Assembly (NCBI GenBank): GCA_964502225.1
Contig: CAZCUC010000004.1
Span: 2,641-66,640, forward strand
Length of the DNA stretch: 64,000 nt
Reading direction: 5' to 3'
DNA from: an uncultured Pseudomonadales bacterium
Lineage (GTDB): Bacteria > Patescibacteriota > Microgenomatia > UBA1400 > UBA12108
The notes beneath the pieces were generated by a model that was not told the origin of the DNA, ran no database searches, and worked only from the letters and a program-made list of their open reading frames with translations. Both the position numbers and the translations under genes were made by a program. Positions 10,558-49,107 of the stretch are shown one piece after another (position 1 is the first letter of the stretch; each line of letters opens with the position of its first letter).

Positions 10558-10593
10558 CTAGTTATTGTAATCTATAGGTCAAATCATTTCGTA

Positions 10594-11380: not shown

Positions 11381-11396
11381 AATTATTATTATACTA

Positions 11397-11423
11397 AAAG
11401 CCCCGGGGTGACCGGGGCTTTTA
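11397..11423 (-). terminator. dnaK intrinsic terminator
   Basis: stem agccccgg/ccggggct with a U-run on the minus transcript, directly after the dnaK stop. Confidence 0.75.
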
Positions 11424-11437
11424 AGTTTTAAATAAAC

Positions 11438-18697: not shown

Positions 18698-19285
18698 ATG
18701 AAACTGCCTGCCTTTTTTGGTCATAAACGATCGATAAACTTGTTGCCTCGGGATGCATTTGAGAGTAGTACTCTGGGAGTAATCCTGGAATGGTCGTTGG
18801 TTTTTGGCAAGTGGGCGGTGATTGTCACACAGCTTGTGGTGATGGGAGCTTTTTTGTATCGCTTTACCCTGGATCGTAACCTGACGGACTTGCGCAAATC
18901 GATCGCCAAAAACGTGGCAATTGTAAAATCGTATGAGCAAGTAGAAAGAGATTATGTCTTGGCACAAAAGCAAGTATTGCGAGCAAAAACGGCCTTGGCG
19001 GCACAGGACAAAATGAGCCAAACCCTCTCGGTCTTGGGACAAATAACTCCGAGCGAGATCTGGTACGACCGAATTAGCATTACCCCTGAAGCACTATCGC
19101 TAAATGCATTTGCCGCAACACTACCTGGATTTGGCAAGTTTTTGACTGCGGCTCAGCGGAGCCCGTCATTTGAGGGGATTAGACTAACCAAACTAGAAAG
19201 TAGCTCGGCTAAAGGCGCGCAAATACAGTTTGAGGTGTCTCTCGATCTAATTGCAGACAAAACTGCACCGGGGACTAAAAAATGA
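18698..19285 (+). CDS. pilN: type IV pilus assembly protein PilN-like
   Basis: hallmark INLLP motif, then a single TM and a periplasmic domain; GGAGG SD. Confidence 0.7.
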   Translation: MKLPAFFGHKRSINLLPRDAFESSTLGVILEWSLVFGKWAVIVTQLVVMGAFLYRFTLDRNLTDLRKSIAKNVAIVKSYEQVERDYVLAQKQVLRAKTALAAQDKMSQTLSVLGQITPSEIWYDRISITPEALSLNAFAATLPGFGKFLTAAQRSPSFEGIRLTKLESSSAKGAQIQFEVSLDLIADKTAPGTKK

Positions 19286-19953
19286 ACATCAATACTCGGA
19301 GATACTCACAGGATTTACGTCGTTATTATCGGATGCCGGCAGTGCAAGTATCGCTAACTTTGGTGTTGTCGGTGTTTTTGATGAGTGTTTTTGTCGTCTT
19401 TGCACTGCGCCCAACAATCTTGTCGATCGTCAACCTGAAAAAAACTATTAGTGAATCGAAAAAAGTACTACAACAACTAGAGACTAAAGTTAATTTTTTA
19501 CAAAAAGCCTCTAACCAATTAGAAACTTTGCGACCAGTAATCCCAAATATCAACAACAGTATTCCCAATAATGGAGCTATGTATTCGCCCATCACCCTAG
19601 CGATAGACGAGCTGGCTTATCAGGTAGGAGTAATAGTCGAGAGCGAGTCGCTAGGGCCAACACTCCTTTACTCGCGAATCCTCTCCCCTTTTACCCCAAA
19701 CAAGAATCAAAAAGTGGTTGAGCTGAGCTTTAGCCTGAGAGTAAGCGGCGGATATAGCGAAGTGACTGATTTTTTGAATATGATGATGAAAATGGAGCGG
19801 ATCGTCTTGGTTGATAATGTCACCATCGCCAAACAGGCAGGCGCGAAAAACTCCACTGCCAGCGTAACGATGAATGTAAGTGGACTGGCTTTTTACCTGG
19901 CAGATGCAACACAGCTAGACAAAGCATTGATCCAGAAAAAGGGAGGTAAATAA
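19282..19953 (+). CDS. pilO: PilO-like pilus assembly protein
   Basis: TM followed by a coiled-coil then an alpha/beta domain; ATGA overlap with pilN. Confidence 0.5.
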   Translation: MNINTRRYSQDLRRYYRMPAVQVSLTLVLSVFLMSVFVVFALRPTILSIVNLKKTISESKKVLQQLETKVNFLQKASNQLETLRPVIPNINNSIPNNGAMYSPITLAIDELAYQVGVIVESESLGPTLLYSRILSPFTPNKNQKVVELSFSLRVSGGYSEVTDFLNMMMKMERIVLVDNVTIAKQAGAKNSTASVTMNVSGLAFYLADATQLDKALIQKKGGK

Positions 19954-20228
19954 TGGCCGTTCGAGATACTATCTTAGTCAGTAAAACGCTGTATCAGATC
20001 GGAGTGGTGACCTTGATTACCGCAATCATGTGGGTTGGAATTGTGGTTTACCAGGCCGCTACTAAACCCTTAGCCGTAGAGATTGATAAATCGATTTTGG
20101 AACCTATCAATACAACAATCGATCAAGAGACAATTACAGCGATCACAAATCGATTGAAAATTGAGCCCAGATTAATAGAGCTTACGGCGAGCGAGAGTGC
20201 TACTATAGAGGAAGATAAAGGCATATGA
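19953..20228 (+). CDS. small single-TM protein (91 aa), possibly pilus-assembly associated
   Basis: ATGA-coupled on both sides. Confidence 0.4.
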   Translation: MAVRDTILVSKTLYQIGVVTLITAIMWVGIVVYQAATKPLAVEIDKSILEPINTTIDQETITAITNRLKIEPRLIELTASESATIEEDKGI

Positions 20229-21577
20229 GCTTGTTAACAAAGAGATTTCCAACTATTTTGGGGTTGTTTTTTTTGGTGGTGATTGTGGTGGGAATTTTCG
20301 TTTATTACTCTAGTACAAAAACAGCTAAAGTGGCGAGTGAGATAGTCCCGACCAAAGTAAGGATTACCAATGTGGCTGATAACAAATTTAGTGTGTCGTG
20401 GATAACATCTAGTCTTACAACAGGTGAGGTTGAGTATGGACAAGTAGGCGAAAAGCTGACTACCCGTGCCAAAGATGATAGAGACACGAGCGTGGCGGGC
20501 CAGTTTGTGACTCACCATGTCACCGTCGAGGGATTGCAACCGAGTACACAATACGCATTTCGAATCTTGACTGGAGACAAGCCAACGAGGTTTGACAACA
20601 GTGGAAGCCCGTACACAGTGGCCACTGGTCCTGTAATTGGCGCGACTCCGGGCTCGCAGAATTTTTACGGTAACGTAGTGCTCCCCTCAAAACAACCAGC
20701 CGAAGGTGCGCTTGTTTATATTTCGTTCCCAGGTGCCGCACCAGCCTCGGCGATTGTGAGAGATGGAGGTAACTACGCCTTCACTTTGTCGACTTTGCGA
20801 TCCAGCGATAACCGCTCCTATATTACCTATGATCCATCTGCAAGTATCGCGAGTATTACAGTTGAATCTGGCAAACAACAATCGATTGTGTCGGCATCTC
20901 TCGCCAACTCTGCACCCGTGCCGCCAATTACCCTAGGGCAGAATGCTGAGTTTTTGAACCAACCACAAAAAGTAGATGAGGTCGCACAGGTGGAAGTAGT
21001 CGCCGAGAAACCAGCAATTTTTAATGTTGAGCCGCTTGTTGCAGATACTGCCAATATCAATGCGATTTCGACAACGACAGTGACGATCTTGAACCCGAAA
21101 GAACCTGGTGAAGTACTCAAGACACTCCGACCCGAGTTCCGCGGGACGGGCCCTGCTGGTACTACTTTGTCGATTGCACTAAAAGGTCAAAAAGCTATTA
21201 GTGATACTACCCAGGTAGGGACTGATGGAACCTGGACTTGGGCGCCGGTGATTGATTTAAAAGTCGGGAAACAGACAATCACTGTGAGTTACTTGCCAAG
21301 TGGTGGCACCACCCAAAAAGTAGAGCGAGAATTTAGTGTGAGCACAAGTACAACCGGACTAGATCCGGCGTTTGTCTCCTCCCCTTCTGCTTCGGTAAAA
21401 ACCACAACGACTCAGGCTTCGAGCAGTCCTGTGAGCAGTAGCTCCGCAACCCCGCGGGTGACGATGCCAAATACGGATGAAGGTACCCCTGTGACAGGAG
21501 TAATAGAGAATACGCTATTGACTGGAGCACTAGGACTGGTCATTATGGTAGTAGGAGCAGTGCTTTTGGCACTGTAG
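20225..21577 (+). CDS. N-anchored surface protein with FN3-like and Ig-like domains and a C-terminal TPVTG-type sorting-like signal
   Basis: N-terminal TM; FN3-like ITNVADNKFSVSW...YAFRI; C-terminus MPNTDEGTPVTGVIENT plus a 20-aa hydrophobic tail. Confidence 0.6.
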   Translation: MSLLTKRFPTILGLFFLVVIVVGIFVYYSSTKTAKVASEIVPTKVRITNVADNKFSVSWITSSLTTGEVEYGQVGEKLTTRAKDDRDTSVAGQFVTHHVTVEGLQPSTQYAFRILTGDKPTRFDNSGSPYTVATGPVIGATPGSQNFYGNVVLPSKQPAEGALVYISFPGAAPASAIVRDGGNYAFTLSTLRSSDNRSYITYDPSASIASITVESGKQQSIVSASLANSAPVPPITLGQNAEFLNQPQKVDEVAQVEVVAEKPAIFNVEPLVADTANINAISTTTVTILNPKEPGEVLKTLRPEFRGTGPAGTTLSIALKGQKAISDTTQVGTDGTWTWAPVIDLKVGKQTITVSYLPSGGTTQKVEREFSVSTSTTGLDPAFVSSPSASVKTTTTQASSSPVSSSSATPRVTMPNTDEGTPVTGVIENTLLTGALGLVIMVVGAVLLAL

Positions 21578-21590
21578 GAAAGTTATATTT

Positions 21591-22787
21591 ATGGCAGATA
21601 CGCTTGTACAACAACCAATCCCCCAGCCTAGTGAGGTACCGCCCGTCACGAGTGCACCACCTGTCATGAACACGCCTCCCGTCATGAGTGTACCTCCATC
21701 ACCGATTAGCCAAAAGGTAGAGCCACCAAAAAGCAAGATTAGCCTGGTCGTGGCAGGAGTCGTGGCACTGGTGATGATGGTCGGAGTGGGAGTATGGGGA
21801 TACTCGCAGTACAGTGGGACAAAGACACCACAAATAGCCAAGTTAACTGAGGAGTTGGATGGAGGAATTACAGTTACACAAACTCCGTCTGAAGAGGCAC
21901 AAGGCAAAGGTGGAACTGTATTTAAGGATGGGATACTGATTGGACATTTGAATAATTTAGAAGTAAACATTCCAGCAATTATCGCTAAGTGCAAGAAAGA
22001 CAAGGCAGAAACAGGCTGTACGATATCAGATATGAAAACATACCTGACGAATGCAGATAATAATTATGACAGTGTGATTGGCGGATCTTGTTCCGGTATT
22101 GAAAACAGCGAGTCACCATCCATTTGTGCTCAAGGACAGGGTCATTGTGTAGGTGGAATATGTCAGCCGGCGAATTGTGCAAATGGATATACCCCTTCTG
22201 CTGAGGGCTGTGTACCAAACCCTAGCTTGGCTTGTAAAGGTACAGACTATGGAGCTCCTGTGTGCTGTTACGACACCTCGTGTGCAGGGGGAACAATTGT
22301 TTGTGAGGCACCAGGCAGAAAGGAATGCAAAAGCACTGGTATAAATGGAGAAAAACACTGCCTTTTGGAGGCTAATTCTGTGGACTGCGGTGGTAAGGTG
22401 GATGAGCCAAATGAAAGGCGGAGTCCTAATCCTTCTCCAAGCGTGTCACCAAGCGTGAGACCTTCCCCTTCTCCATCTCCCTCACCAACCATGGCATGTA
22501 CTGGACTGACACAAACACCCGCGACACAACCAGTAGTAGGATCTAAACTTACATTCACTTGTGCAGGTTCTGTGACACCAAGCAACGCCTCTACCCTTTC
22601 CTACAATTTCCGCTACGCCATTAACAACGGAGCCTGGGTCAATCTAACCAACAAAACCACGGCGACGGCCGAGTTGACCATCAGCGCTTGCGGAACATAT
22701 AAAGTAGAGTGTAGAGCCTGCGCCACATTTGGTGGTTTAATCAAGTGTGATCCATTCTGGCAATATGCAGGAGTCCAACCACTATGA
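21591..22787 (+). CDS. surface protein A: Pro-rich cytoplasmic N-terminus, TM, Cys-rich region, Ser/Pro linker, C-terminal Cys-containing beta domain
   Basis: domain MACTGLTQTP...CRACATFGG shared with the 23992..25152 product. Confidence 0.55.
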   Translation: MADTLVQQPIPQPSEVPPVTSAPPVMNTPPVMSVPPSPISQKVEPPKSKISLVVAGVVALVMMVGVGVWGYSQYSGTKTPQIAKLTEELDGGITVTQTPSEEAQGKGGTVFKDGILIGHLNNLEVNIPAIIAKCKKDKAETGCTISDMKTYLTNADNNYDSVIGGSCSGIENSESPSICAQGQGHCVGGICQPANCANGYTPSAEGCVPNPSLACKGTDYGAPVCCYDTSCAGGTIVCEAPGRKECKSTGINGEKHCLLEANSVDCGGKVDEPNERRSPNPSPSVSPSVRPSPSPSPSPTMACTGLTQTPATQPVVGSKLTFTCAGSVTPSNASTLSYNFRYAINNGAWVNLTNKTTATAELTISACGTYKVECRACATFGGLIKCDPFWQYAGVQPL

Positions 22788-23968
22788 AAAAAGGTTTAAT
22801 CATCGGCTTCTCACTGTTTGCATTGGTGGTACTGATTGTGGGTGTCGTGTATATGGTACGTAAACCAAATATCAATGTAGTGACGGCTGATTGTGCTCCT
22901 AGGTACTACTACAATCTAGAATCAAAGTCCTGTGCCGCTACCACCAGAAACTACAACGCGGCCGAGATCGATTGTGATGGAGGCACTGGCAAGACATGTG
23001 TGGTGAATCTACAGGAATGGATGCCAGGGAAAACTGCCGGATCTTGTTACAAAACTATTGCTCAGTGCCAAGCGGCCAATAGTGGGACAACCACCACCTG
23101 TACTCCTCGCTACTACTACAACACGAAGACTCAGACCTGCACGGCCACTAATCGTAGCTACAACTCTCAAGACGTAGATTGTGATGGAGGTACTGGCAAG
23201 ACATGCGCGGCTAATCTACAAGACTGGGAAGCAGGCAACACAACTGGAATCTGCTATCCTTCTCAGATTGCATGTGCCAACGCTAATGGAGGCGGATCTA
23301 CAACCACCAACTCGTGCTCGAAAACATTTACAGTCGCTTGTGCTAACCCATCGGTTAGTCCTTCGCCAATCCCAAGTACCTCCGCCCCAGTTTATCCTTC
23401 CCCATCGCCCTCTAGCCCATCATCGGCTAGCTTGGACTGTGTCGCCAAGAAAATGTATGAGAATGATAGCCGCAACCGAGCTGGATTCTATTACATGGAG
23501 CGTGAGATCACAGATACCAACACAGTCCAGAATGGCCAAATCATTGTGTACAACATCGTGACCAGAAACAATGGAGGCAACAGCGTACCTGACACAACAA
23601 TTACCGACAGACTATCGACCAACCTAACTTATGTCGATGGAGATAGTGGCTGTGGCTATGACTCAAATACAAGGACTGTGACCTGTACGATTGGAACACT
23701 CTCACCAAATAGTGAAGCTCAGAGATCGTTTAGAGCTAGTGTGACAGTGGCTGGGACTACCTCGGTCGCCAACACAGCTGAGGTGACCTCGACCAACGGA
23801 CAAAGAGATAGTTGCAGTGTCTCAATTGATGCGACTGGAAGAGTGAGCGTTGTATCCTCTCCGGCACCTACTGCACTACCAGTTGCTGGTGTGTTTGAGG
23901 TGACAGCACTACCCCTCACCCTCGGACTACTACTACTGATCATTGGTGGACTGGGACTACTGGTGCTA
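22774..23968. repeat. direct repeat copy 1 (1195 bp, appears 100% identical to 25151-26345)
   Basis: identical DNA from 10 nt upstream of the ATG to the last sense codon of gene B. Confidence 0.8.
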
Positions 23969-23971
23969 TAG
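22784..23971 (+). CDS. surface protein B: signal-anchor, two Cys-rich PRYYYN/DCDGGTGKTC modules, Ser/Pro linker, DUF11-like domain, LPVAG-type C-terminal signal
   Basis: DUF11-like YNIVTRNNGGNSVPDTTITDRLSTNLTYV...TVTCTIGTLSPNSEAQRSFRASVTV; C-terminus LPVAGVFEVT plus hydrophobic tail. Confidence 0.65.
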   Translation: MKKGLIIGFSLFALVVLIVGVVYMVRKPNINVVTADCAPRYYYNLESKSCAATTRNYNAAEIDCDGGTGKTCVVNLQEWMPGKTAGSCYKTIAQCQAANSGTTTTCTPRYYYNTKTQTCTATNRSYNSQDVDCDGGTGKTCAANLQDWEAGNTTGICYPSQIACANANGGGSTTTNSCSKTFTVACANPSVSPSPIPSTSAPVYPSPSPSSPSSASLDCVAKKMYENDSRNRAGFYYMEREITDTNTVQNGQIIVYNIVTRNNGGNSVPDTTITDRLSTNLTYVDGDSGCGYDSNTRTVTCTIGTLSPNSEAQRSFRASVTVAGTTSVANTAEVTSTNGQRDSCSVSIDATGRVSVVSSPAPTALPVAGVFEVTALPLTLGLLLLIIGGLGLLVL

Positions 23972-23991
23972 ATTGACGTTTCTGAATATAT

Positions 23992-25152
23992 TTGAGACTA
24001 TGGAAGCAGGCACTGCGTATGGTGCTAATTGAGAGTAAGAATATGCCCGACTCAACCATAGATCCAAATTTATCCAACCCCCAAGCTTTAGTTGATGCCG
24101 CCTTGAGCGACACTACCGCACCAAAGCCGAGTTTACCTACGCTCGAGCCTCTGCAACCTAGCGAACCAGCACCCGTAGAAAAGTCTCCTGAAGTAGTAGT
24201 GGCTGATGTAAAAGTTCCTGAAGTAAAGGCTCCTGAAGTAAAAGTTGAAACTAACAACATAGAGATGAGTGACGAGACGCCCCTACAGTTCGTACAGCCG
24301 AGTGAGCCAGTCACACAGCCAATCCCCTTAACAGAGCCAGTTACACCACCCCTACCCAACCCACCCATGCCTCCGTCACCGACAGTAGTGGATAGCCAAG
24401 CGATGAAACCAAAAAGTAAACTGGGAGTAGTAGTTGGGGGAGTACTAATACTAGTATTGGCGCTGGGCGCTGGAGTGTGGGGCTATCTAGGGAGTCCGAC
24501 CGAAAAAAAACCTGCTCAGATAGCAGAGGCACAGGTTGCAGATGGGTGTACTGAAAACTGTGAAAGTAGTGGGAAAGTTTGTATATATAGTACAACCAAG
24601 AAAACTTACAGTTGTCAGAAAACTGGAGGACAAGAGGCATGTATACATACTATTTGCCCTGTTAACTATGTATGTGTAGAAGGAGGAGCTCAGGGAACTT
24701 ATTGTGAACCAAAAGAAGGAGGTAAGCCGCCGGGAGAAACGCTAACTTGCCCGCCAGGGACAAGAAGCAATGGACAGTGTGAGGATGGAGTTTTGAGACC
24801 ACCGTGCTGTGAACCAGATACCTCCCCATCCCCCTCACCGTCGACAACTACCACCGCCACAATGGCGTGCACAGGTCTGACCCAAACTCCAAGTACAACC
24901 CCAGTAGTTGGATCTAAACTAACATTCACTTGTAGTGGTTCAATTACCCCAAGCAATGCAGGTACCTTGTCGTATGAGTTTGTTTACAAACTCAATGCCG
25001 GCGGGTGGAAAAGCTTGAGTAACAAAACTACAAACACGGCCGAGCTGACTATCGCAACTTGCGGAGAATATATTGTGCATTGCCGTGCGTGTGCCACGAT
25101 CAATGGTAGCAAGCAATGTGACCCTGTTTGGAAGGACGTAGTAATACAATGA
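23992..25152 (+). CDS. surface protein A' (diverged paralog of A)
   Basis: same architecture; C-terminal domain MACTGLTQTPSTTPVVGSKLTFTC...CRACATINGSKQC. Confidence 0.55.
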   Translation: MRLWKQALRMVLIESKNMPDSTIDPNLSNPQALVDAALSDTTAPKPSLPTLEPLQPSEPAPVEKSPEVVVADVKVPEVKAPEVKVETNNIEMSDETPLQFVQPSEPVTQPIPLTEPVTPPLPNPPMPPSPTVVDSQAMKPKSKLGVVVGGVLILVLALGAGVWGYLGSPTEKKPAQIAEAQVADGCTENCESSGKVCIYSTTKKTYSCQKTGGQEACIHTICPVNYVCVEGGAQGTYCEPKEGGKPPGETLTCPPGTRSNGQCEDGVLRPPCCEPDTSPSPSPSTTTTATMACTGLTQTPSTTPVVGSKLTFTCSGSITPSNAGTLSYEFVYKLNAGGWKSLSNKTTNTAELTIATCGEYIVHCRACATINGSKQCDPVWKDVVIQ

Positions 25153-26345
25153 CAACCACTATGAAAAAAGGTTTAATCATCGGCTTCTCACTGTTTGCAT
25201 TGGTGGTACTGATTGTGGGTGTCGTGTATATGGTACGTAAACCAAATATCAATGTAGTGACGGCTGATTGTGCTCCTAGGTACTACTACAATCTAGAATC
25301 AAAGTCCTGTGCCGCTACCACCAGAAACTACAACGCGGCCGAGATCGATTGTGATGGAGGCACTGGCAAGACATGTGTGGTGAATCTACAGGAATGGATG
25401 CCAGGGAAAACTGCCGGATCTTGTTACAAAACTATTGCTCAGTGCCAAGCGGCCAATAGTGGGACAACCACCACCTGTACTCCTCGCTACTACTACAACA
25501 CGAAGACTCAGACCTGCACGGCCACTAATCGTAGCTACAACTCTCAAGACGTAGATTGTGATGGAGGTACTGGCAAGACATGCGCGGCTAATCTACAAGA
25601 CTGGGAAGCAGGCAACACAACTGGAATCTGCTATCCTTCTCAGATTGCATGTGCCAACGCTAATGGAGGCGGATCTACAACCACCAACTCGTGCTCGAAA
25701 ACATTTACAGTCGCTTGTGCTAACCCATCGGTTAGTCCTTCGCCAATCCCAAGTACCTCCGCCCCAGTTTATCCTTCCCCATCGCCCTCTAGCCCATCAT
25801 CGGCTAGCTTGGACTGTGTCGCCAAGAAAATGTATGAGAATGATAGCCGCAACCGAGCTGGATTCTATTACATGGAGCGTGAGATCACAGATACCAACAC
25901 AGTCCAGAATGGCCAAATCATTGTGTACAACATCGTGACCAGAAACAATGGAGGCAACAGCGTACCTGACACAACAATTACCGACAGACTATCGACCAAC
26001 CTAACTTATGTCGATGGAGATAGTGGCTGTGGCTATGACTCAAATACAAGGACTGTGACCTGTACGATTGGAACACTCTCACCAAATAGTGAAGCTCAGA
26101 GATCGTTTAGAGCTAGTGTGACAGTGGCTGGGACTACCTCGGTCGCCAACACAGCTGAGGTGACCTCGACCAACGGACAAAGAGATAGTTGCAGTGTCTC
26201 AATTGATGCGACTGGAAGAGTGAGCGTTGTATCCTCTCCGGCACCTACTGCACTACCAGTTGCTGGTGTGTTTGAGGTGACAGCACTACCCCTCACCCTC
26301 GGACTACTACTACTGATCATTGGTGGACTGGGACTACTGGTGCTA
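25151..26345. repeat. direct repeat copy 2 (1195 bp)
   Basis: identical to 22774-23968. Confidence 0.8.
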
Positions 26346-26348
26346 TGA
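25161..26348 (+). CDS. surface protein B' (exact duplicate of B)
   Basis: 395-aa product identical to B; start at MKKGLIIGF is preferred over the 25128 extension. Confidence 0.65.
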   Translation: MKKGLIIGFSLFALVVLIVGVVYMVRKPNINVVTADCAPRYYYNLESKSCAATTRNYNAAEIDCDGGTGKTCVVNLQEWMPGKTAGSCYKTIAQCQAANSGTTTTCTPRYYYNTKTQTCTATNRSYNSQDVDCDGGTGKTCAANLQDWEAGNTTGICYPSQIACANANGGGSTTTNSCSKTFTVACANPSVSPSPIPSTSAPVYPSPSPSSPSSASLDCVAKKMYENDSRNRAGFYYMEREITDTNTVQNGQIIVYNIVTRNNGGNSVPDTTITDRLSTNLTYVDGDSGCGYDSNTRTVTCTIGTLSPNSEAQRSFRASVTVAGTTSVANTAEVTSTNGQRDSCSVSIDATGRVSVVSSPAPTALPVAGVFEVTALPLTLGLLLLIIGGLGLLVL

Positions 26349-27352
26349 AAAAAGCGTTGCTGATTGCTCTACCTATTTTGATTGTAATTGGAGTGGTGGT
26401 TGGATACTTTTTCTATAGCAGAGAGAAAGTAGGGATTAATGAAGTAGTTCCAACTACTTGCGCACCCGGAACTCACCAAGTTTTTAATTATAATGCGGCA
26501 GGTAATCAGATTCCGCCTTACTGTGCCGCCGATACAACAGGGGCGACCAATACCCAGGCATCAGCGGCACCATCTACTTCGAGTAGTTGTGAGACAAAAC
26601 CAAATTGTTTGATAGTAAACCCGCCGACCTGCAAGGGACTACAGCCACCCGATGGTAAGACTTGGTGCGCAACCACGACAACTACTACTACCACAACGAC
26701 TACCACGGGTGATGCAACCTGCGCTAAGCGATACTACTATAGTTTAGATTCAAAGGGATGTGTTGCGACAACAAGAAATTATAACTCGGCAGAAATGGAT
26801 TGTGATGGCGGAACGGGTAAAACATGTGTGGTGAATCTGCAGGAAGCACTGCCCGGTAAAACTGGGGGCTCTTGTTTTAAAACTGAAGAGCTATGTCTGG
26901 CTTCTAAAGCAATTTGTTCTCCCAGATATTATTACAACACCGTGACTAAACTTTGTGTAGCGACAAACCGGAGCTATGACTCGAAGGATGTCGATTGTGA
27001 TGGCCAGACAAATAAAACCTGTACGGCCAATCTGCAAGACTGGGAGCCAGGGAGAACTACGGGAGTCTGTTATGCGTCTCAGACTACCTGCTTAGATGCC
27101 AACAAAACAACAACACAAACTACTAGTACCACGACAACTACTGCCGCAAGCCCGAGCCCGAGTCCCAGTGTGTCCTCTGGACTAGGAGGTGGGACAACAG
27201 TGACCCCTACCCCCTCGCCCTCTCCTAGAGCTGCTATGCCAGACACTAGTGAAGGAACACCAGTAACTGGCGTGTTTGAAGTGACGGCGGGAACTATTGG
27301 AATTGGTTTGTTGCTGTTGATCGCTGGTATATTTGGAATATTGATGTTTTGA
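26345..27352 (+). CDS. surface protein C: two PRYYYN/DCDGGTGKTC Cys-rich modules, poly-Thr linkers, TPVTG-type C-terminal signal
   Basis: modules CAKRYYYSLDSKGC...DCDGGTGKTC and CSPRYYYNTVTKLC...DCDGQTNKTC; C-terminus MPDTSEGTPVTGVFEVT plus hydrophobic tail. Confidence 0.6.
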   Translation: MKKALLIALPILIVIGVVVGYFFYSREKVGINEVVPTTCAPGTHQVFNYNAAGNQIPPYCAADTTGATNTQASAAPSTSSSCETKPNCLIVNPPTCKGLQPPDGKTWCATTTTTTTTTTTTGDATCAKRYYYSLDSKGCVATTRNYNSAEMDCDGGTGKTCVVNLQEALPGKTGGSCFKTEELCLASKAICSPRYYYNTVTKLCVATNRSYDSKDVDCDGQTNKTCTANLQDWEPGRTTGVCYASQTTCLDANKTTTQTTSTTTTTAASPSPSPSVSSGLGGGTTVTPTPSPSPRAAMPDTSEGTPVTGVFEVTAGTIGIGLLLLIAGIFGILMF

Positions 27353-27366: not shown

Positions 27367-29766
27367 CTATCGCCAAGTCGGGAAGAGCTTGAATAAATTG
27401 TCCCAGTAAATGTTTGAGGTAGGCAAGCCATATATCATAGGACTAATCAGGAGTAACCCTAAAACAGAGAGGACAAGAACTAGACGGCGATAAAGAGGAT
27501 TTAAACGTACCAACCAGCTCGCCAAGATAGTAGTCAAAAAGTAGGCGGAGGGAAGGTAGTGGTAAAAAAACATGATGCGAGGCGAAATAACCCAGGGAAT
27601 AAAGAGGACGAAATAAAGTGAATAAAGAATGGAGTATGGATAGAGAAATAGATACTTGAGATTGATAACGGCGGCGAACAACCCTAACCAGAGAATGATC
27701 GGATTGCCAATTGCGTAGATATTGGAGAGAAAGTTGTCCTGATAATTGACGTAGTACCATACTGGCCGCAAATCGAAGATCCATTTGATGGGGGTGGACT
27801 GGTAAGCATGGGTGGCGACCAGGTGCGTGTGGTAATACCACATTTGGCGGTGGAGCTCCCACCACTGCGCCCAGGTATGACCGGCCAAAATAAAAGGAGT
27901 AAAAGTTAGCGTATAAACGGTTAAAACTATTAATGATAAACGGACAGCGAATAAAAAATGTAAGACCCCAGACTTTAGATGCCAGTGTCTAAGCGGATTT
28001 TGATGGAGATAGAGTAGGGCGAGGGGAACGATGCCATAGAGCGCGCTCCACTTGGAGGCAAGCGCAAGACCATAAAGAATGGCGGCTCCTTTCCAGCGAG
28101 ATTTGACCGCCAAGTACATGGACCAAATATAAAAACACAACATATAAGTATCATTCATGGCGATGCGAGATTGAACGAGATGGAGACCTTCGATGCTAAC
28201 TAAAAATGTTGCAAGCAAAGCCAAGTGTTTGTTGCTGGTGAGCGCAGTGAGAAAGAGATATAGTCCTAGCAAACTAACTACGCCAAAGGTGGCCGAGCCA
28301 AACCGCCAACCGAGGCTGTTTTCACCAAACAGCAACATACCAGCGACCATGCCGTACTTGGCGAGAGGAGGGTGAGTCCATTCGTAAGCCACCCCTTCTG
28401 GGGGCGTAGTCCACCACTCCCAGGCCTCGACGTGGTTATTTAAATACTCACGGGAGGTAAAAGCATGGTAGACTTCGTCGAAAATGTAGGCTGGAGGATG
28501 AGAGAGATTGACGAAGCGAAGGAGTGATGCAAAGATCAAGATTCCAACCAGCAACTGATTGGATTTTACTTTAACAAAAATAGATTTTAATAAACTAGGC
28601 CATGACCAAACGAAGACTAACAACAAAGCCGCAAGGACTGTAACCCAAGAAATAAGAGAGATGGTCGAGAGTGAAAATGGCCATATCTGAGCGTGATTGA
28701 CCCAATAGTAAGCACCATACAAATTGAGCGTGAAGGTGGTAGTTAAGAGAGTAAGGGGAATGAGGAGGTAGTAGTCGGTCATGGCGGCCAGCGTGAGAAA
28801 GGGCAATCCAAAAAGAAGGTGCCGCTCATGCATGCGGGTAGTAAAGGTAAAAAAGATAACCATAATAGTCGCGGCAACTCGCCAGGCATACTGGGGAGAA
28901 AAATCTTGTTTGCGCCAAGCATTAAAAGTGAAGAGAGTGAGTGAGACAAAGAGGATGGTGCCCAACGCCTGGCCAGACAAATTGAATACGCTAGTAGAAT
29001 CTGGAATCCAACTCAAGTTGGGATGGAGCGACCAAAAATTGAAAGCGTTGACAGTCAAAAATGGATAGGTACCGGTTTGTGAAGTGATGCGGTCAAAAAT
29101 ATGAGAAACAAAGCCCAGCCCACCTGTAGGAACCCCAGTGAGAAAAAAGGTGATCATGGAAAAAGTAGGTAGTTGCCACCATGGTCGTTTTTGAACGATG
29201 GTGACCAGCCACAGGACAGGTGCCACCAACACCATGATTGGCTTGTAGGCAACTGCCAGTCCAAATAAGATGCTAGAAGAGAGGAGTGAGGTCTGGGGAT
29301 TGATAATTTTTGTAAGCGAGAGTAAGGCAAGAAGTGCAGGGATCGTATCAACTTGGCCCCAAAAAGCGTTGTCGCCGATTAGCGCTGGGGAGAGTAAAAG
29401 GAGGTAAATACTAAGAGAGAAGAGAGAGGATTTGGGAGTAGATTTAGCGATGAAGAAGATCAAGATGAGTTCGAGGACAATATGAAGTAATTTGAATACT
29501 ATCCCAAAAGGCAAGTGGAAAAAATCGGCTACAAGTGAGATAGGGGCGAATGTCAGGATGGGGAGTGGGAGATAATCTGACCAGACGGTACTAAAAAATA
29601 AGCTGGGTGATTGGAGCCAAAATGAACGAGACCAAGACTCGTAGGTACCGATATCGTAATATTGCGCGGGAATTGTGAGTCCGTAGAGACGGACGAGGAT
29701 GGCAGTCACCCAAACTAGTGTTAAGAAGTATATTTTATTTTGCCAAATTTGCTTTAACATAAGCAT
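27367..29766 (-). CDS. large GT-C family glycosyltransferase (PMT/GT39-like phospho-lipid-carrier dependent O-mannosyltransferase-like), two fused GT-C halves
   Basis: 799 aa with more than 20 TM segments; second half carries the PMT-type DE motif region IFDEVYHAFTSREYL...THPPLAKY. Confidence 0.65.
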   Translation of the reverse strand: MLMLKQIWQNKIYFLTLVWVTAILVRLYGLTIPAQYYDIGTYESWSRSFWLQSPSLFFSTVWSDYLPLPILTFAPISLVADFFHLPFGIVFKLLHIVLELILIFFIAKSTPKSSLFSLSIYLLLLSPALIGDNAFWGQVDTIPALLALLSLTKIINPQTSLLSSSILFGLAVAYKPIMVLVAPVLWLVTIVQKRPWWQLPTFSMITFFLTGVPTGGLGFVSHIFDRITSQTGTYPFLTVNAFNFWSLHPNLSWIPDSTSVFNLSGQALGTILFVSLTLFTFNAWRKQDFSPQYAWRVAATIMVIFFTFTTRMHERHLLFGLPFLTLAAMTDYYLLIPLTLLTTTFTLNLYGAYYWVNHAQIWPFSLSTISLISWVTVLAALLLVFVWSWPSLLKSIFVKVKSNQLLVGILIFASLLRFVNLSHPPAYIFDEVYHAFTSREYLNNHVEAWEWWTTPPEGVAYEWTHPPLAKYGMVAGMLLFGENSLGWRFGSATFGVVSLLGLYLFLTALTSNKHLALLATFLVSIEGLHLVQSRIAMNDTYMLCFYIWSMYLAVKSRWKGAAILYGLALASKWSALYGIVPLALLYLHQNPLRHWHLKSGVLHFLFAVRLSLIVLTVYTLTFTPFILAGHTWAQWWELHRQMWYYHTHLVATHAYQSTPIKWIFDLRPVWYYVNYQDNFLSNIYAIGNPIILWLGLFAAVINLKYLFLYPYSILYSLYFVLFIPWVISPRIMFFYHYLPSAYFLTTILASWLVRLNPLYRRLVLVLSVLGLLLISPMIYGLPTSNIYWDNLFKLFPTWR

Positions 29767-30706
29767 GAAGATCCTCTTGCGTGGTTGTCGGGATCAAAAC
29801 CCATTGCCCACCATATTCACGAGTAGATTTGGGGTTCTTGAGATGATCGGTGAGAACAATACTAGAAATATTGTCTTGGTTGCCTAGGGATAAGGCGAGT
29901 TTGATAAAGCTCCCCTGTTCGACGCTCGTAATATCTGTATCGATGGAGGAGGACAAGTTGGATTTTAACCGCTCGATAATTTCGGTATTAAAGAGAGTGC
30001 CAGCAGAAAAAAGCTTGTCTCGAAAAGCGAGGATTATTTTTTGTTGTCTCTGACCACGAGCAAAGTCGGTACCCTCCTCCCCCTGCGCATAACGCGATCG
30101 AGCAAATTTGAGAGCAGTAGCACCATCTAGATGAGTCCTGCCAGCTTCAAAATGAATATGTTCATATCTATCACTCTCTGGTTCGACTGTTTCCTTGCCG
30201 GGAATCGGATATTTGTAATCATCGAAAGTGTTGTCGATGGTTAAGTCGATCCCACCGACAGAGTCGATGGCTTTGACGAACCCACTAAAATCGACAAGGA
30301 GAAGATAGTGGATGGGTACCCCCAAAACCTCTGACACGGCCGATTTGGCCAGGTCCCGTCCTCCCCCATCACGTCGCTCGTTGCCGTAGTGATAAGCAGT
30401 ATTGATTTTGGCTTTTAGAGAGGGAACCCAGATGTCTCTTGGGATAGAGATCGTAGTGCCAGTATTATTTTTGAGATTGAGCGAGAGTACTAGCATGCTA
30501 TCGGTCAAATCAGAGCCTTCGTGGCCGGCGCCACCAATGCCTAAAAGTAAAATGTTGGTGTTACCCTCGTATGAATTGAGGACAGAGGAAGGATCTGAAA
30601 TAACGCCGCTCACGATGTTTTTGACAGTCTGGTTGCGAACATACCACGAGACAGTCAAGACACAAGCCGACAAAAATATCGCAAGAAGTATTTTTTTAGC
30701 CAACAT
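29735..30706 (-). CDS. LytR-CpsA-Psr (LCP) family cell-envelope polymer transferase
   Basis: N-terminal TM plus LCP core (LLLGIGGAGHEGSDLTDSMLVLSL...ISIPRD); start either 30706 (MLAKK) or 30775. Confidence 0.75.
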   Translation of the reverse strand: MLAKKILLAIFLSACVLTVSWYVRNQTVKNIVSGVISDPSSVLNSYEGNTNILLLGIGGAGHEGSDLTDSMLVLSLNLKNNTGTTISIPRDIWVPSLKAKINTAYHYGNERRDGGGRDLAKSAVSEVLGVPIHYLLLVDFSGFVKAIDSVGGIDLTIDNTFDDYKYPIPGKETVEPESDRYEHIHFEAGRTHLDGATALKFARSRYAQGEEGTDFARGQRQQKIILAFRDKLFSAGTLFNTEIIERLKSNLSSSIDTDITSVEQGSFIKLALSLGNQDNISSIVLTDHLKNPKSTREYGGQWVLIPTTTQEDLHAYVKANLAK

Positions 30707-31358
30707 GGGAACACTCGCGAATAATAGATAAAAAACTAGCTGGATCAAGAGAGGCAGTCGCAACCAATACGCCATTTAATCCCAGAGGGAGAAGCTGTGA
30801 GACATTGTCTGGTGTGACAGATCCACCATAGATAACCTTGGAACTAGGAGCAAATGAGCGAATCTCGGCAACCACTTCTTTGATTAAACTAATGGGTGCG
30901 ATCGTGGTGCCACCGATATCCGCAGATGGTTCGAAGCAGAAGAGAGAGTTGTCGATTAGATCGTCGTCGAGGAGAGCAAATTGGGGTGCGATTTGATTGC
31001 GCTCTAGGCAGACTAGTGGAGTGATTCCGACTGCGAGCAATTCTTTGATCTTACTAGCGATATCTGCGGGAGTTTCGTGGAAATACCTGCGCCGCTCCGA
31101 GTGGCCGACAATGGCATACTTTACCCCATAGTCCAGGAGTTGAGTTGCGTTGACGGCGCCAGTGTATGAGCCTACGGGGAAGGGAGAGACATCCTGGGCA
31201 CAGAGTGAGAGACTAGAAGAGAAATGCGAGAAGAGAGGAAGATGAAGAAATGAGGGGGCGATGACCATACCAGGCACAGGTTTGACGGCTGTAAGCCAAG
31301 ATTGAACCTGCTCTTTAGTTAAATTGGACTTGAAGTTGGCGATAACAAGGAAGTTCAT
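30696..31358 (-). CDS. tpiA: triosephosphate isomerase
   Basis: ANFKSN, AIVGHSERR, YGGSV motifs; start moved to MNFLVIANFK. Confidence 0.85.
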   Translation of the reverse strand: MNFLVIANFKSNLTKEQVQSWLTAVKPVPGMVIAPSFLHLPLFSHFSSSLSLCAQDVSPFPVGSYTGAVNATQLLDYGVKYAIVGHSERRRYFHETPADIASKIKELLAVGITPLVCLERNQIAPQFALLDDDLIDNSLFCFEPSADIGGTTIAPISLIKEVVAEIRSFAPSSKVIYGGSVTPDNVSQLLPLGLNGVLVATASLDPASFLSIIRECSHVG

Positions 31359-31396
31359 AGAAGTAGTATAACCCAAGCGGGTATTTTTGGGGTATT

Positions 31397-44246: not shown

Positions 44247-44255
44247 AATGTTTAT

Positions 44256-45749: not shown

Positions 45750-45751
45750 TC

Positions 45752-48071: not shown

Positions 48072-48968
48072 TTACTTTACTACTGTAGTATATTTGGCTG
48101 AAACCCAACCAATCGAGTTTTCAAACTGCACTTTGTGCCAACCTAGATCAGTAGTTTCTCCTAGATATGGCAAAGTCTCGCCAGTATTGGCTTTGCCTAA
48201 CTCCTCTGATGATCCTGAAGCCTCTTTGCGTACCCTGAGCCAAGTAGTTCCCGTCTCACCAATTAGCACATACGGTTTTGGCATCGTAGTCCCGCTAGAT
48301 GGCTTGGGAGTGCTAGATGAAAGTGTTGAAACTGAAGGGGTGGGAGTGACATCTGGACTCAGGGATTGGGTAGCAGAGGGGGTGGCGGGAGCTGGTGGGG
48401 TAAGGGTGATGGTTTGGCTCGCGAGTTTAAAATTGACAATCAAGTTGTACCCTTTGACAGTGTTGAGAGAGAGATTTTGTTCTAAATAACCGGGAGAGGT
48501 GGCCAAGATATTGTGAGCACCGGGTGAAGTGGCGATTTTAGAGAGCGGAGTAAAGCCACTTGGCTTGTCGTCGATCGTGACATTGATCGTGTCGGGCTCA
48601 GAGATGACTGAGAGATAAGTCTCGCCAGAGGGATCCTCTTGGAGCTGGAGAGTATAGCCAGATGAATCAAGGTCTGAGGAGGCGAAGGTGCGATTGACAA
48701 CTGTTGAGACCTTGGAGGTCAAGAGAATCTTGGTTTCGTAGGGCACGAGATTGTCACTGCCACTGGGGACTAGGCGAAGAGTATATTCACCTGGTTTGAG
48801 ATTTTTGTCGGAATAGGGAGTTTCGCCTTTGTTGTCGCCATTTAAGTAGACTGTTGAGGTGGGGGTTGAAGTAATATCTAGCCCGGCCGGTGGTTTGACA
48901 AAGAGATCTTTGGGAGTGCAACCGCCTAGCACCAGTGAAGCGCCTAGAATCAGGAAAAGTTTTTTCAT
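48072..48968 (-). CDS. lipoprotein with PEGA-like repeats, Ser/Pro/Thr linker and a C-terminal SH3b domain
   Basis: lipobox LVLGGC; start at MKKLFLILG; C-terminal SH3b-like TTWLRVRKEASG...GWVSAKY. Confidence 0.55.
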   Translation of the reverse strand: MKKLFLILGASLVLGGCTPKDLFVKPPAGLDITSTPTSTVYLNGDNKGETPYSDKNLKPGEYTLRLVPSGSDNLVPYETKILLTSKVSTVVNRTFASSDLDSSGYTLQLQEDPSGETYLSVISEPDTINVTIDDKPSGFTPLSKIATSPGAHNILATSPGYLEQNLSLNTVKGYNLIVNFKLASQTITLTPPAPATPSATQSLSPDVTPTPSVSTLSSSTPKPSSGTTMPKPYVLIGETGTTWLRVRKEASGSSEELGKANTGETLPYLGETTDLGWHKVQFENSIGWVSAKYTTVVK

Positions 48969-49046
48969 ACGGTTATATGGTAACACCCCCTTTAACCTTT
49001 GGCTACCAACCCAAATCTTGAGTTTAATCAGGATTGAGGACGGGTA

Positions 49047-49075
49047 TTGACAAAAATATCCCCTCTTTTTATACT
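49047..49075 (+). promoter_or_regulatory. sigma70-type promoter TTGACA-17-TATACT for hsp20
   Basis: ttgaca 49047-49052, tatact 49070-49075; CIRCE begins about +1. Confidence 0.6.
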
Positions 49076-49080
49076 GCATA

Positions 49081-49107
49081 TTAGCACTCGACAAGCTAGA
49101 GTGATAA
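49081..49107. promoter_or_regulatory. CIRCE operator (TTAGCACTC-N9-GAGTGaTAA) upstream of hsp20
   Basis: 9/9 plus 8/9 match with a 9-nt spacer. Confidence 0.8.

What the first reader, a model, noticed from the sequence alone, without database searches (positions are those of the whole stretch)
27367..31358. tpiA - LCP - giant PMT-like GT-C operon next to S/T/P-linker surface proteins: probable O-glycosylation and wall-anchoring module
An 799-aa double GT-C protein with a PMT-type DE motif overlaps an LCP-family transferase, which in turn overlaps tpiA, all on the minus strand. They sit immediately downstream (convergently) of surface proteins rich in SPSPSP and poly-Thr linkers, the classic substrates of bacterial protein O-mannosyltransferases. 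Placement in one operon with a core glycolytic gene suggests constitutive, essential envelope decoration.
Basis: partly seen in the sequence, partly recalled or inferred. Interest (0 to 1): 0.6.

Follow-up and report, generated by a model that had tools for sequence, protein, structure and literature searches.

The report
Fused two-module protein O-mannosyltransferase operon
An uncultured Woesebacteria (CPR) genome encodes one 799-residue membrane protein that joins a PimE/ALG6-like sugar transferase to a PMT-type protein O-mannosyltransferase, in an operon with a cell-wall LCP ligase; it probably sugar-coats Ser/Thr/Pro-rich surface proteins, and it is a new member of a fusion type already noted elsewhere.

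Summary
Three overlapping minus-strand genes encode a divergent but intact triose-phosphate isomerase, an LCP phosphotransferase and a 799-aa polytopic protein.

- **C half (aa ~399-799):** a MIR-less GT39/PMT enzyme. It has the DE motif (D430-E431), the Pmt1-R138 equivalent (R488) and a PMT_4TMC module.
- **N half (aa 1-398):** not a duplicate of the C half. It is a separate GT-C module of the PimE/ALG6 type. It has no Pfam hit itself, but 16 of 34 homologues hit GT87.
- **Fusion:** conserved in about 74 Woesebacteria/Microgenomates loci. Split, inverted and lectin-containing versions occur elsewhere.
- **LCP:** lies upstream in 56 of 62 loci. Fusions outside this conserved region (three loci checked) lack it. 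tpiA is linked only in the closest clade.
- **Convergent neighbours:** Ser/Thr/Pro-linker proteins with LPx[AST]G-type sorting signals, in a pilN-pilO operon.

Best reading (confidence 0.5): a single-chain equivalent of the mycobacterial Pmt/GT87-partner complex. It O-mannosylates secreted linker-rich proteins, and the N module may extend the glycan. The LCP probably acts separately.

A GT87::GT39 fusion was already noted for Paenibacillus in a 2026 preprint. Interest is moderate.

The parts
30696..31358 (-). tpiA: a short (220 aa from the ATG; 226 from the upstream TTG at 31376), divergent triose-phosphate isomerase and the first gene of the co-directional trio.
   Evidence: Pfam TIM E 1.6e-44. 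It scores below the NCBIfam equivalog cut-offs. The N-x-K, GHSERR and FEP catalytic motifs are visible in the translation. It is linked to LCP only in the closest clade, 14 of 62 loci.
29735..30706 (-). LCP (LytR-CpsA-Psr) phosphotransferase with an N-terminal membrane anchor. The probable start is the ATG at 30706; the maximal ORF extends to 30775.
   Evidence: Pfam 112.9 bits; TIGR00350 97.8 bits against a cut-off of 62.3. The closest solved structure is B. subtilis TagV (E 1e-21), with the TDS, SIPRD, ARSR and DFARGQRQ motifs aligned. Orthologue ORF lengths of 321-323 aa favour the 30706 start.
28573..29766 (-). N module of the fusion (aa 1-398): a PimE/ALG6-like GT-C (GT87-like) with 40 invariant residues.
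   Evidence: The window protein has no Pfam hit, but 16 of 34 homologues hit GT87, best E 4.4e-9. The AF2 model has pLDDT 92. Foldseek matches are ALG6 at E 1.8e-5 (TMq 0.66) and PimE at E 2.3e-4 (TMt 0.63). The module occurs as a stand-alone ~400-aa gene in L083, L043 and L044 and in thousands of clusters.
29653..29655 (-). D38: an invariant Asp at the start of the first juxtamembrane helix after TM1 of the N module, and the candidate catalytic base.
   Evidence: It is invariant in A1 and A2 and in the distant clade. Its position matches the PimE D58 rule, 'tip of JM1' (PMC12041525). This is an inference, not a formal alignment.
28819..28839 (-). The invariant T-R-M-H-E-R-H motif (aa 310-316) of the N module, a candidate site for binding the donor phosphate.
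   Evidence: It is invariant in 34 sequences. The pair of His residues recalls PimE H321/H322. This is an inference.
27367..28572 (-). C module of the fusion (aa 399-799): a MIR-less GT39/PMT protein O-mannosyltransferase core plus PMT_4TMC.
   Evidence: Pfam PMT 56.7 bits, PMT_4TMC 52.2 bits and PMT_2 44.1 bits, all above their cut-offs. The profile aligns to yeast Pmt1 at the DE motif, at R138 and across the 4TMC motifs. Foldseek's top hits are Pmt4, Pmt1 and Pmt2.
28474..28479 (-). The DE motif (D430-E431) in 'YIFDEVYHAF', in the first extracytoplasmic loop of the C module.
   Evidence: It is invariant and aligns to Pmt1 'VVFDEVHF', D77-E78.
26345..27352 (+). Convergent 335-aa surface protein with an N-terminal anchor, poly-Thr and SPSPSP linkers, Cys-rich repeats and a C-terminal TPVTG plus hydrophobic tail. 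It is a candidate acceptor.
   Evidence: Translation. It is 85% S/T/P in its richest 20-aa window, and the sorting-signal pattern was found.
20225..26348 (+). Five further S/T/P-linker surface-protein genes: an fn3/Big_13 protein, two S386-type paralogues and two identical DUF11 genes. Three of them have LPVAG or TPVTG sorting signals.
   Evidence: Pfam, translations, S/T/P scan. Orthologues in 21-63 loci keep the linker, and fn3 and DUF11 orthologues also keep the LPx[AST]G signal.
18698..20228 (+). pilN, pilO and a 91-aa gene that head the surface-protein operon. These are context, not part of the GT-C operon.
   Evidence: Pfam PilN E 1.3e-5, PilO E 3.6e-9. The order pilN-pilO-small-fn3 is kept in 57 of 58 loci.

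Best explanation
The 799-aa protein is a single-chain version of a two-partner protein O-mannosyltransferase.

**C module.** It is a MIR-less GT39/PMT enzyme. It takes mannose from polyprenyl-phosphate-mannose on the outer face of the membrane. Its DE motif (D430-E431) acts in the transfer of the first sugar to Ser/Thr in disordered S/T/P-rich stretches of proteins as they are exported.

**N module.** It is a PimE/ALG6-type GT-C and occupies the place of the second protomer. That place is held by Pmt2 in yeast and by the GT87-like Rv0051 homologue in mycobacteria. Unlike Rv0051, it keeps a full set of invariant polar residues, so it probably also works as an enzyme. The likely activity is extending O-mannose to short oligomannose, as PimE does in mycobacteria.

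**Acceptors.** The likely acceptors are the many S/T/P-linker surface proteins of this organism. These include the sortase-signal proteins encoded convergently next door.

**LCP and tpiA.** The co-translated LCP is a normal glycopolymer-to-peptidoglycan ligase. It shares envelope-directed expression with the fusion rather than its chemistry. tpiA is a lineage-specific passenger.

**What is shown and what is inferred.** Shown: the gene structure, family assignments, motif conservation, fusion/fission pattern and synteny. Inferred: the donor sugar, the protein acceptors, catalytic activity of the N module, and independence of the LCP.
For: - **GT39 signatures in the C module.** Pfam PMT, PMT_4TMC and PMT_2 score above their cut-offs. 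PDB sequence hits are exclusively PMTs, and D77-E78, R138 and the 4TMC motifs align. Foldseek's top hits are Pmt4, Pmt1 and Pmt2 at E 3e-9 to 5e-6.
- **GT-C identity of the N module.** GT87 hits in 16 of 34 homologues. Fold matches to ALG6 and PimE. Forty invariant residues, including D38, D64, K92, Q138, D140, K175 and R311-H316, also kept in the 31-37% identity clade.
- **Match to PimE functional residues.** D38, D140 and K175 sit at a constant offset of 20 from PimE D58, D160 and K195. PimE has 12 TM helices with both termini cytoplasmic, which would put both catalytic loops of the fusion outside.
- **Confident packing of the two modules.** The whole-protein AF2 model has pLDDT 87 and pTM 0.85.
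- **The two modules are separable units that recur together.**
  - Split adjacent genes in L083 and L068.
  - An inverted N module in L023 and L024.
  - Extra stand-alone N paralogues in L043 and L044.
  - Larger GT87::lectin::PMT fusions, P0199 and P0226.
  - Fusions outside the conserved region lack an LCP.
- **Literature.** PMT initiates and the GT87 enzyme PimE elongates O-mannose in mycobacteria (PMC12757957). M. smegmatis Pmt pulls down a GT87-like partner, and Paenibacillus GT39 is fused to GT87 (bioRxiv 10.64898/2026.07.15.738315).
- **Candidate acceptors.** Six adjacent and at least two distant genes in the window have 70-85% S/T/P linkers, and orthologues keep them.
Against: - No biochemical data exist for any CPR PMT-like enzyme.
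- The window encodes no polyprenyl-phosphate-mannose synthase. The rest of the genome could not be searched.
- The C module scores only 43.9 bits against the actinobacterial Pmt equivalog model, whose cut-off is 800. It is not an orthologue of any characterised bacterial Pmt.
- The N module of the window protein itself misses Pfam GT87 and has no sequence hit in the PDB. The residue correspondence to PimE rests on numbering and fold, not on an alignment.
- LCP lies upstream in 56 of 62 Woesebacteria loci. In the distant clade, 1-3 further GT-C-like genes sit between LCP and the fusion. That looks more like a glycopolymer-assembly island than a protein-glycosylation unit.
- Adjacency to the surface proteins cannot be separated from region-wide synteny.
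Confidence: 0.5

Rival explanations
1. Wall-glycopolymer assembly. Both GT-C modules, and the extra GT-C genes in related genomes, add sugars from polyprenyl-phosphate donors to a lipid-linked secondary cell-wall polymer on the outer face of the membrane. The co-translated LCP then ligates that polymer to peptidoglycan. This would parallel mannan/arabinan assembly and Lcp1 ligation in Corynebacteriales.
For: - LCP is upstream on the same strand in 56 of 62 loci and overlaps the fusion gene in all 15 loci of the close clade.
- In the distant clade, 1-3 further polytopic PMT_2-like or GT-C-like genes lie between LCP and the fusion.
- The region also holds FemAB and MurJ.
- The characterised GT87 and ALG6-type enzymes closest in fold to the N module act on lipid-linked glycans.
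- The window encodes a WecA-like initiator and a decaprenyl-phosphate phosphoribosyltransferase-like enzyme.
Against: - According to the sources read, characterised GT39 enzymes glycosylate proteins, and the C module has the full GT39 motif set.
- GT87::PMT fusions in other contexts have no LCP neighbour, nor do the split genes in L083.
- The WecA/UbiA/GT2 cluster is 13-19 kb away and has its own GT-C-like gene.
- The LCP linkage sits inside a block of general synteny.
Confidence: 0.27
2. LCP-dependent protein glycosylation. The GT-C modules build or decorate a lipid-linked glycan that the LCP transfers onto the sortase-signal surface proteins before they are anchored.
For: - The LCP and GT-C genes are translationally coupled.
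- The neighbouring proteins combine S/T/P linkers with LPx[AST]G sorting signals.
- The LCP catalytic Arg/Asp motifs are intact.
Against: - Nothing specific supports it beyond adjacency.
- The model leaves the PMT module's own protein-directed chemistry redundant.
- The closest solved LCP relatives are teichoic-acid ligases, TagV, TagT and TagU.
- Fusions outside the conserved region lack an LCP.
Confidence: 0.08
3. The N module is a non-catalytic scaffold. It only dimerises with the PMT module and helps recruit the acceptor, as proposed for mycobacterial Rv0051/ML2687c and yeast Pmt2. The protein then adds single mannoses only.
For: The preprint reports a catalytically dead GT87-like partner of Pmt and cites the Paenibacillus fusion as evidence that dimerisation is general. 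The window's N module misses the Pfam GT87 model.
Against: Forty invariant residues are kept over 31-75% identity. They include an Asp at the canonical catalytic position and Lys/His/Arg clusters that match the PimE donor-binding residues. A scaffold would not need this pattern. The mycobacterial partner is said to have lost these residues.
Confidence: 0.15

Closest known systems
Paenibacillus GT87::GT39 fusion (UniProt V9WAU2) and the mycobacterial Pmt/Rv0051 (GT87-like) complex, both from bioRxiv 10.64898/2026.07.15.738315
   Same: A GT39 PMT core paired with a GT87-type GT-C. In Paenibacillus the pairing is by translational fusion. In mycobacteria it is by complex formation, supported by a pull-down. 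Neither has a MIR domain.
   Different: The Woesebacteria protein comes from a CPR lineage. Its N module is only marginally GT87 by sequence. Unlike Rv0051, it retains candidate catalytic and donor-binding residues. No relationship to V9WAU2 could be computed here. In Woesebacteria the fusion is embedded in an LCP operon.
Actinobacterial protein O-mannosylation: Pmt (Rv1002c, GT39) initiation plus PimE (GT87) elongation
   Same: The same two enzyme families, and by inference the same donor. The acceptors are S/T/P-rich regions of secreted proteins.
   Different: In actinobacteria the two enzymes are separate genes. The C module here is not an orthologue of actinobacterial Pmt: 43.9 bits against a cut-off of 800. 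No activity has been shown.
Yeast Pmt1-Pmt2 heterodimer (PDB 6P25)
   Same: The DE motif, the R138 equivalent and the C-terminal 4TM module align. The architecture of two GT-C units is the same.
   Different: There is no MIR domain. The partner is a different GT-C family rather than a PMT paralogue. The two units are one polypeptide.
PimE (PDB 9DM5, 9DM7) and ALG6 (PDB 6SNH)
   Same: They are the best fold matches to the N module, at TM 0.56-0.66. The Asp at the start of JM1 and the Lys and His positions are comparable with those of PimE.
   Different: There is no detectable sequence similarity to either. Those enzymes act on lipid-linked acceptors.
LCP ligases TagT, TagU, TagV and Cps2A
   Same: The LCP domain and its catalytic motifs are present.
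   Different: The substrate is unknown, and the gene overlaps a GT-C gene.

Membership tests
GT39 / PMT protein O-mannosyltransferase (C module) | Asp-Glu (DE) motif in the first extracytoplasmic loop | tested here: met
   D430-E431 are invariant in 34 sequences and align to Pmt1 D77-E78.
GT39 / PMT protein O-mannosyltransferase (C module) | PMT core and C-terminal four-TM module (PF02366, PF16192) above Pfam gathering scores | tested here: met
   56.7 bits against 22.7, and 52.2 bits against 32.4. All 34 homologues hit PMT_4TMC.
GT39 / PMT protein O-mannosyltransferase (C module) | Conserved Arg equivalent to Pmt1 R138 | tested here: met
   R488 is invariant and aligns to R138.
GT39 / PMT protein O-mannosyltransferase (C module) | Luminal MIR domain (eukaryotic PMTs only) | tested here: not met
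   There is no MIR hit and the module is only ~400 aa. According to the preprint, bacterial Pmts also lack it, so this does not exclude membership of the bacterial branch.
GT39 / PMT protein O-mannosyltransferase (C module) | Orthology to characterised actinobacterial Pmt (NCBIfam NF058602) | tested here: not met
   43.9 bits against a cut-off of 800, with a partial match only.
GT39 / PMT protein O-mannosyltransferase (C module) | Transfer of mannose from polyprenyl-phosphate-mannose to protein Ser/Thr | not testable with these tools
   This needs an enzymatic or glycoproteomic assay.
GT87 (PimE-type polyprenyl-phosphate-mannose mannosyltransferase) (N module) | Match to Pfam GT87 (PF09594) | tested here: inconclusive
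   The window protein has no hit at E<=10. Sixteen of 34 homologues hit, best E 4.4e-9. Related stand-alone and fused proteins also hit GT87, and some hit Alg6_Alg8 as well.
GT87 (PimE-type polyprenyl-phosphate-mannose mannosyltransferase) (N module) | GT-C fold with a catalytic Asp at the tip of JM1 and Lys/His binding of the donor phosphate | tested here: inconclusive
   Fold matches to PimE (TMt 0.63) and ALG6 (TMq 0.66). Invariant D38, K175, H313 and H316 sit at comparable positions. No residue-level structural alignment was available.
LCP (LytR-CpsA-Psr) glycopolymer-peptidoglycan ligase | LCP domain above curated cut-offs, with conserved Arg/Asp catalytic motifs and an N-terminal membrane anchor | tested here: met
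   Pfam 112.9 bits; TIGR00350 97.8 bits against 62.3. Motifs align to TagV. A hydrophobic N-terminus is visible in the translation.
Triose-phosphate isomerase | TIM barrel domain with catalytic Lys, His and Glu motifs | tested here: met
   Pfam E 1.6e-44. The motifs ANFK, GHSERR and FEP are in the sequence. It scores below the NCBIfam equivalog cut-offs.
Sortase substrates (neighbouring surface proteins) | C-terminal LPXTG-like motif, hydrophobic segment and charged tail | tested here: inconclusive
   LPVAG or TPVTG plus a hydrophobic segment is present but without a charged tail in this clade. Distant-clade orthologues have LPx[AST]G, a transmembrane segment and a Lys-rich tail. No sortase gene was looked for outside the window.
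Operon tpiA-LCP-GT-C | Co-directional, overlapping genes without an internal terminator, conserved in relatives | tested here: met
   Overlaps of 11 nt (with the LCP start at 30706) and 26-32 nt. No terminator above chance. LCP-GT-C overlap is seen in 15 loci. tpiA is present in only 14 of 62 loci.

The most novel reading that the evidence does not exclude
Both halves are active. The protein would then be a self-contained 'initiate-and-extend' O-mannosylation machine built as an intramolecular Pmt1-Pmt2-like pseudo-heterodimer. Woesebacteria would use it, in step with the co-translated LCP, to coat sortase-anchored proteins encoded in the type IV pilus operon. That would make protein O-mannosylation a core, conserved feature of the CPR cell surface and of the organism's attachment apparatus.
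Probability: 0.15. Interest if true: 0.65.

Novelty: new member of a known kind. Interest (0 to 1): 0.4.

Why it matters
- **Independent support for a proposed complex.** A natural gene fusion in CPR bacteria supports the recent proposal that bacterial PMTs work as a pair with a GT87-type GT-C. Because the partner module here keeps its active-site residues, a single polypeptide could be used to ask whether that partner is an elongating enzyme or only a scaffold.
- **A first experimental handle on the CPR surface.** The result predicts that uncultured, ultrasmall Woesebacteria O-glycosylate their linker-rich, wall-anchored surface proteins. These include proteins encoded in a type IV pilus operon. 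This gives a concrete way to study CPR surface chemistry.
- **Limits.** The family assignment is conventional: the gene is already annotated as a GT39 or phospholipid-carrier-dependent glycosyltransferase. The fusion type has been noted before. The impact is therefore incremental.

Tried and rejected
- **Internal duplication.** BLASTP of the N half against the C half found nothing (best E 0.38). Rejected.
- **ArnT, lipid-A or OST identity.** ArnT and OST appear only as weaker fold matches, and no sequence hit was found. Rejected.
- **Artefactual fusion by frameshift.** About 74 loci have one ORF of 780-812 aa. Rejected.
- **The 486-488-aa 'C-only' database hits as natural stand-alone forms.** In L003 the ORF is actually continuous (9044-11461), so P0114 looks like a gene-calling truncation. 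Genuine split forms are L083 and L068.
- **Sequence searches of the N module against the PDB.** A profile and a GT87-positive relative both returned no hits, so no residue alignment to PimE was obtained.
- **Cluster look-up of distant fusions.** It returned no names or taxa.
- **Search for a polyprenyl-phosphate-mannose synthase or GtrA-like flippase.** None was found in the window or in the LCP-fusion gap of distant loci. The gaps hold GT-C-like membrane proteins instead.
- **Promoter scan.** Nothing above chance.
- **Transmembrane parity of the N module.** It could not be settled by hand from helix lists. It rests on homology to the 12-TM PimE.

Full report
**What is there**

Three co-directional minus-strand ORFs occupy 27367-31376.

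- **tpiA.** The protein is a short TIM (Pfam E 1.6e-44). It scores below NCBIfam equivalog cut-offs. The ANFK, GHSERR and FEP catalytic motifs are visible in the translation.
- **LCP.** The middle gene encodes an LCP phosphotransferase: Pfam 112.9 bits, TIGR00350 97.8 bits against a cut-off of 62.3. Its catalytic Asp/Arg motifs align to B. subtilis TagV.
- **The 799-aa protein.** The third gene encodes a polytopic membrane protein.

The junction sequences show stop/start overlaps. tpiA ends at 30696-30698. The LCP most likely starts at the ATG at 30706, because orthologous ORFs allow only 321-323 aa. The GT-C start (ATG at 29766 or 29760) lies 32 or 26 nt upstream of the LCP stop and is preceded by AGAGGA. 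No terminator or promoter signal exceeds chance. pcrA diverges 38 nt from the tpiA ATG. The convergent gene 26345..27352 ends 14 nt from the GT-C stop.

**The 799-aa protein has two different GT-C modules**

*C module.* Pfam PMT, PMT_2 and PMT_4TMC hits fall only in aa 410-706. A profile of 34 homologues hits only PMTs in the PDB. It aligns YIFDEVYHAF to the Pmt1 DE motif (D77-E78), R488 to Pmt1 R138, and the LHRQMWYYH...YQSTP...RPVWY and PRIMFFYHYLPS motifs to the Pmt1 four-TM C-terminal module. There is no MIR domain.

*N module.* The N half (aa 1-398) has no Pfam hit at E<=10 and no similarity to the C half. Three lines of evidence still place it in the GT-C superfamily:

- 16 of 34 homologues hit Pfam GT87, best E 4.4e-9.
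- An AF2 model of the N half (pLDDT 92) matches ALG6 (E 1.8e-5, TMq 0.66), PimE (E 2.3e-4, TMt 0.63), ALG3, ArnT and PIG-U.
- Forty residues are invariant. They include D38 at the start of the first juxtamembrane helix, W62-x-D64-Y-L-P, K92, W-G-Q138-x-D140, K175-P-I and T-R-M-H-E-R-H (310-316). They persist in the 31-37% identity clade.

The PimE paper places the catalytic D58 at the tip of JM1 and names D160, K195 and H321/H322 as functional residues. It reports 12 TM helices with both termini cytoplasmic (PMC12041525). D38, D140 and K175 sit at a constant offset of 20 from D58, D160 and K195. This is suggestive, but it is not a formal alignment. The even TM number would place both catalytic loops of the fusion outside the membrane.

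The full-length model (pLDDT 87, pTM 0.85) implies a defined packing of the two modules. Its best PDB matches are Pmt4, Pmt1 and Pmt2.

**Distribution of the fusion**

The closest database protein is 99% identical and is named Candidatus Woesebacteria. About 800-aa homologues extend down to 41% identity in the first search. A genome scan gave 80 loci from distinct Woesebacteria/Microgenomates species at 31-91% identity. About 74 of 83 loci carry the fused ORF.

The modules are separable:

- Adjacent split genes occur in L083 (Daviesbacteria) and L068.
- L023 and L024 have the C module after the LCP and the N module inverted.
- L043 and L044 have two extra stand-alone N paralogues.

The N-module profile finds 8,084 clusters (E<=1e-3) in 1.84 billion representatives. 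Many are ~400-aa stand-alone proteins. Others are 800-1300-aa fusions, including GT87::PMT with CBM_4_9 or F5/8-type-C inserts.

**Gene context**

The whole region is syntenic across these genomes. The order is: AddA, FemAB, PcrA(-), then [TIM]-LCP-[0-3 genes]-fusion(+), then (-)DUF11/S386/fn3, small gene, PilO, PilN, then MurJ(+), LepA.

- Of 62 loci with enough upstream sequence, 56 have the LCP upstream on the same strand.
- In 15 of those, all in the close clade, the LCP overlaps the fusion gene.
- In the rest, the two are 1-4 kb apart.
- tpiA is present in only 14 of the 62 loci.
- 57 of 58 loci have fn3 and PilO downstream.
- The gaps in the distant clade hold more polytopic GT-C-like proteins, some with PMT_2 hits.
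- GT87::PMT fusions outside this synteny block (L084, L085) and the split genes in L083 have no LCP nearby.

**The neighbouring surface proteins**

Genes 20225-27352 belong to an operon headed by pilN and pilO. They encode proteins with an N-terminal anchor, 70-85% S/T/P linkers and, in four of the six, a C-terminal LPVAG or TPVTG followed by a hydrophobic tail. The orthologues of fn3 and DUF11 keep both the linker and an LPx[AST]G signal. In the distant clade a Lys-rich tail follows, which completes a classical sortase sorting signal. S/T/P linkers also occur in distant window genes, 4717..5730 and 48072..49094. They are therefore a general property of this proteome.

**Interpretation**

*Literature.*

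- A review states that in mycobacteria the GT39 Pmt initiates O-mannosylation and the GT87 enzyme PimE elongates it (PMC12757957).
- A July 2026 preprint (bioRxiv 10.64898/2026.07.15.738315) reports three things:
  - M. smegmatis Pmt pulls down a GT87-like partner, the Rv0051 homologue.
  - The pair is predicted to resemble the Pmt1-Pmt2 heterodimer.
  - The preprint remarks that Paenibacillus GT39 enzymes are fused to a GT87 enzyme.

*Best reading.* The Woesebacteria protein is therefore best read as a single-chain PMT complex. Its N module, unlike Rv0051, keeps candidate catalytic residues and may be an elongating transferase. Fusions occur without an LCP in other contexts. The window also holds a separate WecA-like, DPPR-synthase-like, GT2 and GT-C-like cluster that could supply an LCP substrate. 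For both reasons I treat the LCP as functionally separate, with reservations.

*Main rival (0.27).* The LCP and the GT-C genes together assemble a wall glycopolymer. The deep LCP linkage and the additional GT-C genes in relatives support this.

*What is not supported.* The 'wall-anchoring' and 'essential because of tpiA' inferences are not supported.

**Novelty and score**

This is a new, CPR member of an already noted architecture, GT87::GT39, with a lineage-specific operon context. No function has been shown in any organism. Interest is 0.4.

Noticed in passing
window 22776-23969 and 25153-26346: A perfect 1,194-nt direct repeat. The DUF11/LPVAG surface-protein gene is present twice, and each copy is preceded by a diverged S386-type paralogue (21591-22787 and 23992-25152). 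This is either a recent duplication or gene conversion, or an assembly artefact.
   Followed up: partly
window 42732-48062 (+): A cluster of four genes. The first is a membrane GT2 (Glyco_trans_2_3). The second is a 497-aa GT-C-like protein ('YGDEEIY...KPPLIY', no Pfam hit). The third is a WecA-like phosphotransferase (E 1e-27). It overlaps the fourth, a decaprenyl-phosphate phosphoribosyltransferase-like UbiA enzyme (230.6 bits against a cut-off of 234). The cluster suggests a glycopolymer built on a polyprenyl-phosphate-pentose donor in a CPR bacterium, and it is a possible source of the LCP substrate.
   Followed up: partly
window 18698-21577; loci L001-L082: An fn3/Pur_ac_phosph_N/Big_13 protein with an S/T/P linker and an LPxTG-like signal follows pilN-pilO-small gene in 57 of 58 loci. 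It looks like a conserved, wall-anchored component of, or partner to, the type IV pilus machinery in Woesebacteria.
   Followed up: partly
window 20225-27352; orthologues in L001-L083: The C-terminal sorting signals read LPVAG or TPVTG plus a hydrophobic segment, with no charged tail, in this clade. The distant clade has LPx[AST]G, a transmembrane segment and a WKK/WKxSE tail. No sortase gene was identified in the window.
   Followed up: no
L030 8235-9893; L042 5769-8896; L075 5765-9985; L078 8788-9990; L036 8851-10032: In the distant Woesebacteria clade, 1-3 additional polytopic GT-C-like genes lie between the LCP and the fusion. Some have PMT_2 hits, and several are on the opposite strand. 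Together they form a GT-C island.
   Followed up: partly
P0199 (1257 aa), P0226 (1303 aa; L084 3571-7482), P0126 (903 aa; L085): Larger GT87::PMT fusions from unidentified organisms carry CBM_4_9 or F5/8-type-C lectin-like domains. The F5/8-type-C domain in P0226 sits where eukaryotic PMTs have the MIR domain. Their neighbours are housekeeping genes, with no LCP.
   Followed up: partly
L023 9965-12381; L024 5620-8015; L083 9884-12307; L068 1212-3833; L043 and L044 8377-10825: Natural rearrangements of the two modules. L023 and L024 have the C module after the LCP with the N module inverted downstream. L083 and L068 have split adjacent genes. L043 and L044 have tandem extra N-type paralogues.
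   Followed up: partly
record titles (e.g. L006, L008, L026-L028): Many GenBank MAG records carrying this Woesebacteria-type locus are titled 'uncultured Pseudomonadales' or 'Gammaproteobacteria'. These are probably mislabelled bins.
   Followed up: no
window 4717-5730 (-) and 48072-49094 (-): Further S/T/P-linker proteins lie far from the GT-C operon. One has PEGA and SH3_3 domains. This shows that such linkers are common in this proteome.
   Followed up: no
window 30696-31376 (-) and 49732-50805 (-): tpiA is short and scores below NCBIfam equivalog cut-offs. GAPDH lies 18 kb away in a different context, so the glycolytic genes are scattered. tpiA sits in the envelope operon only in the closest clade.
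   Followed up: partly
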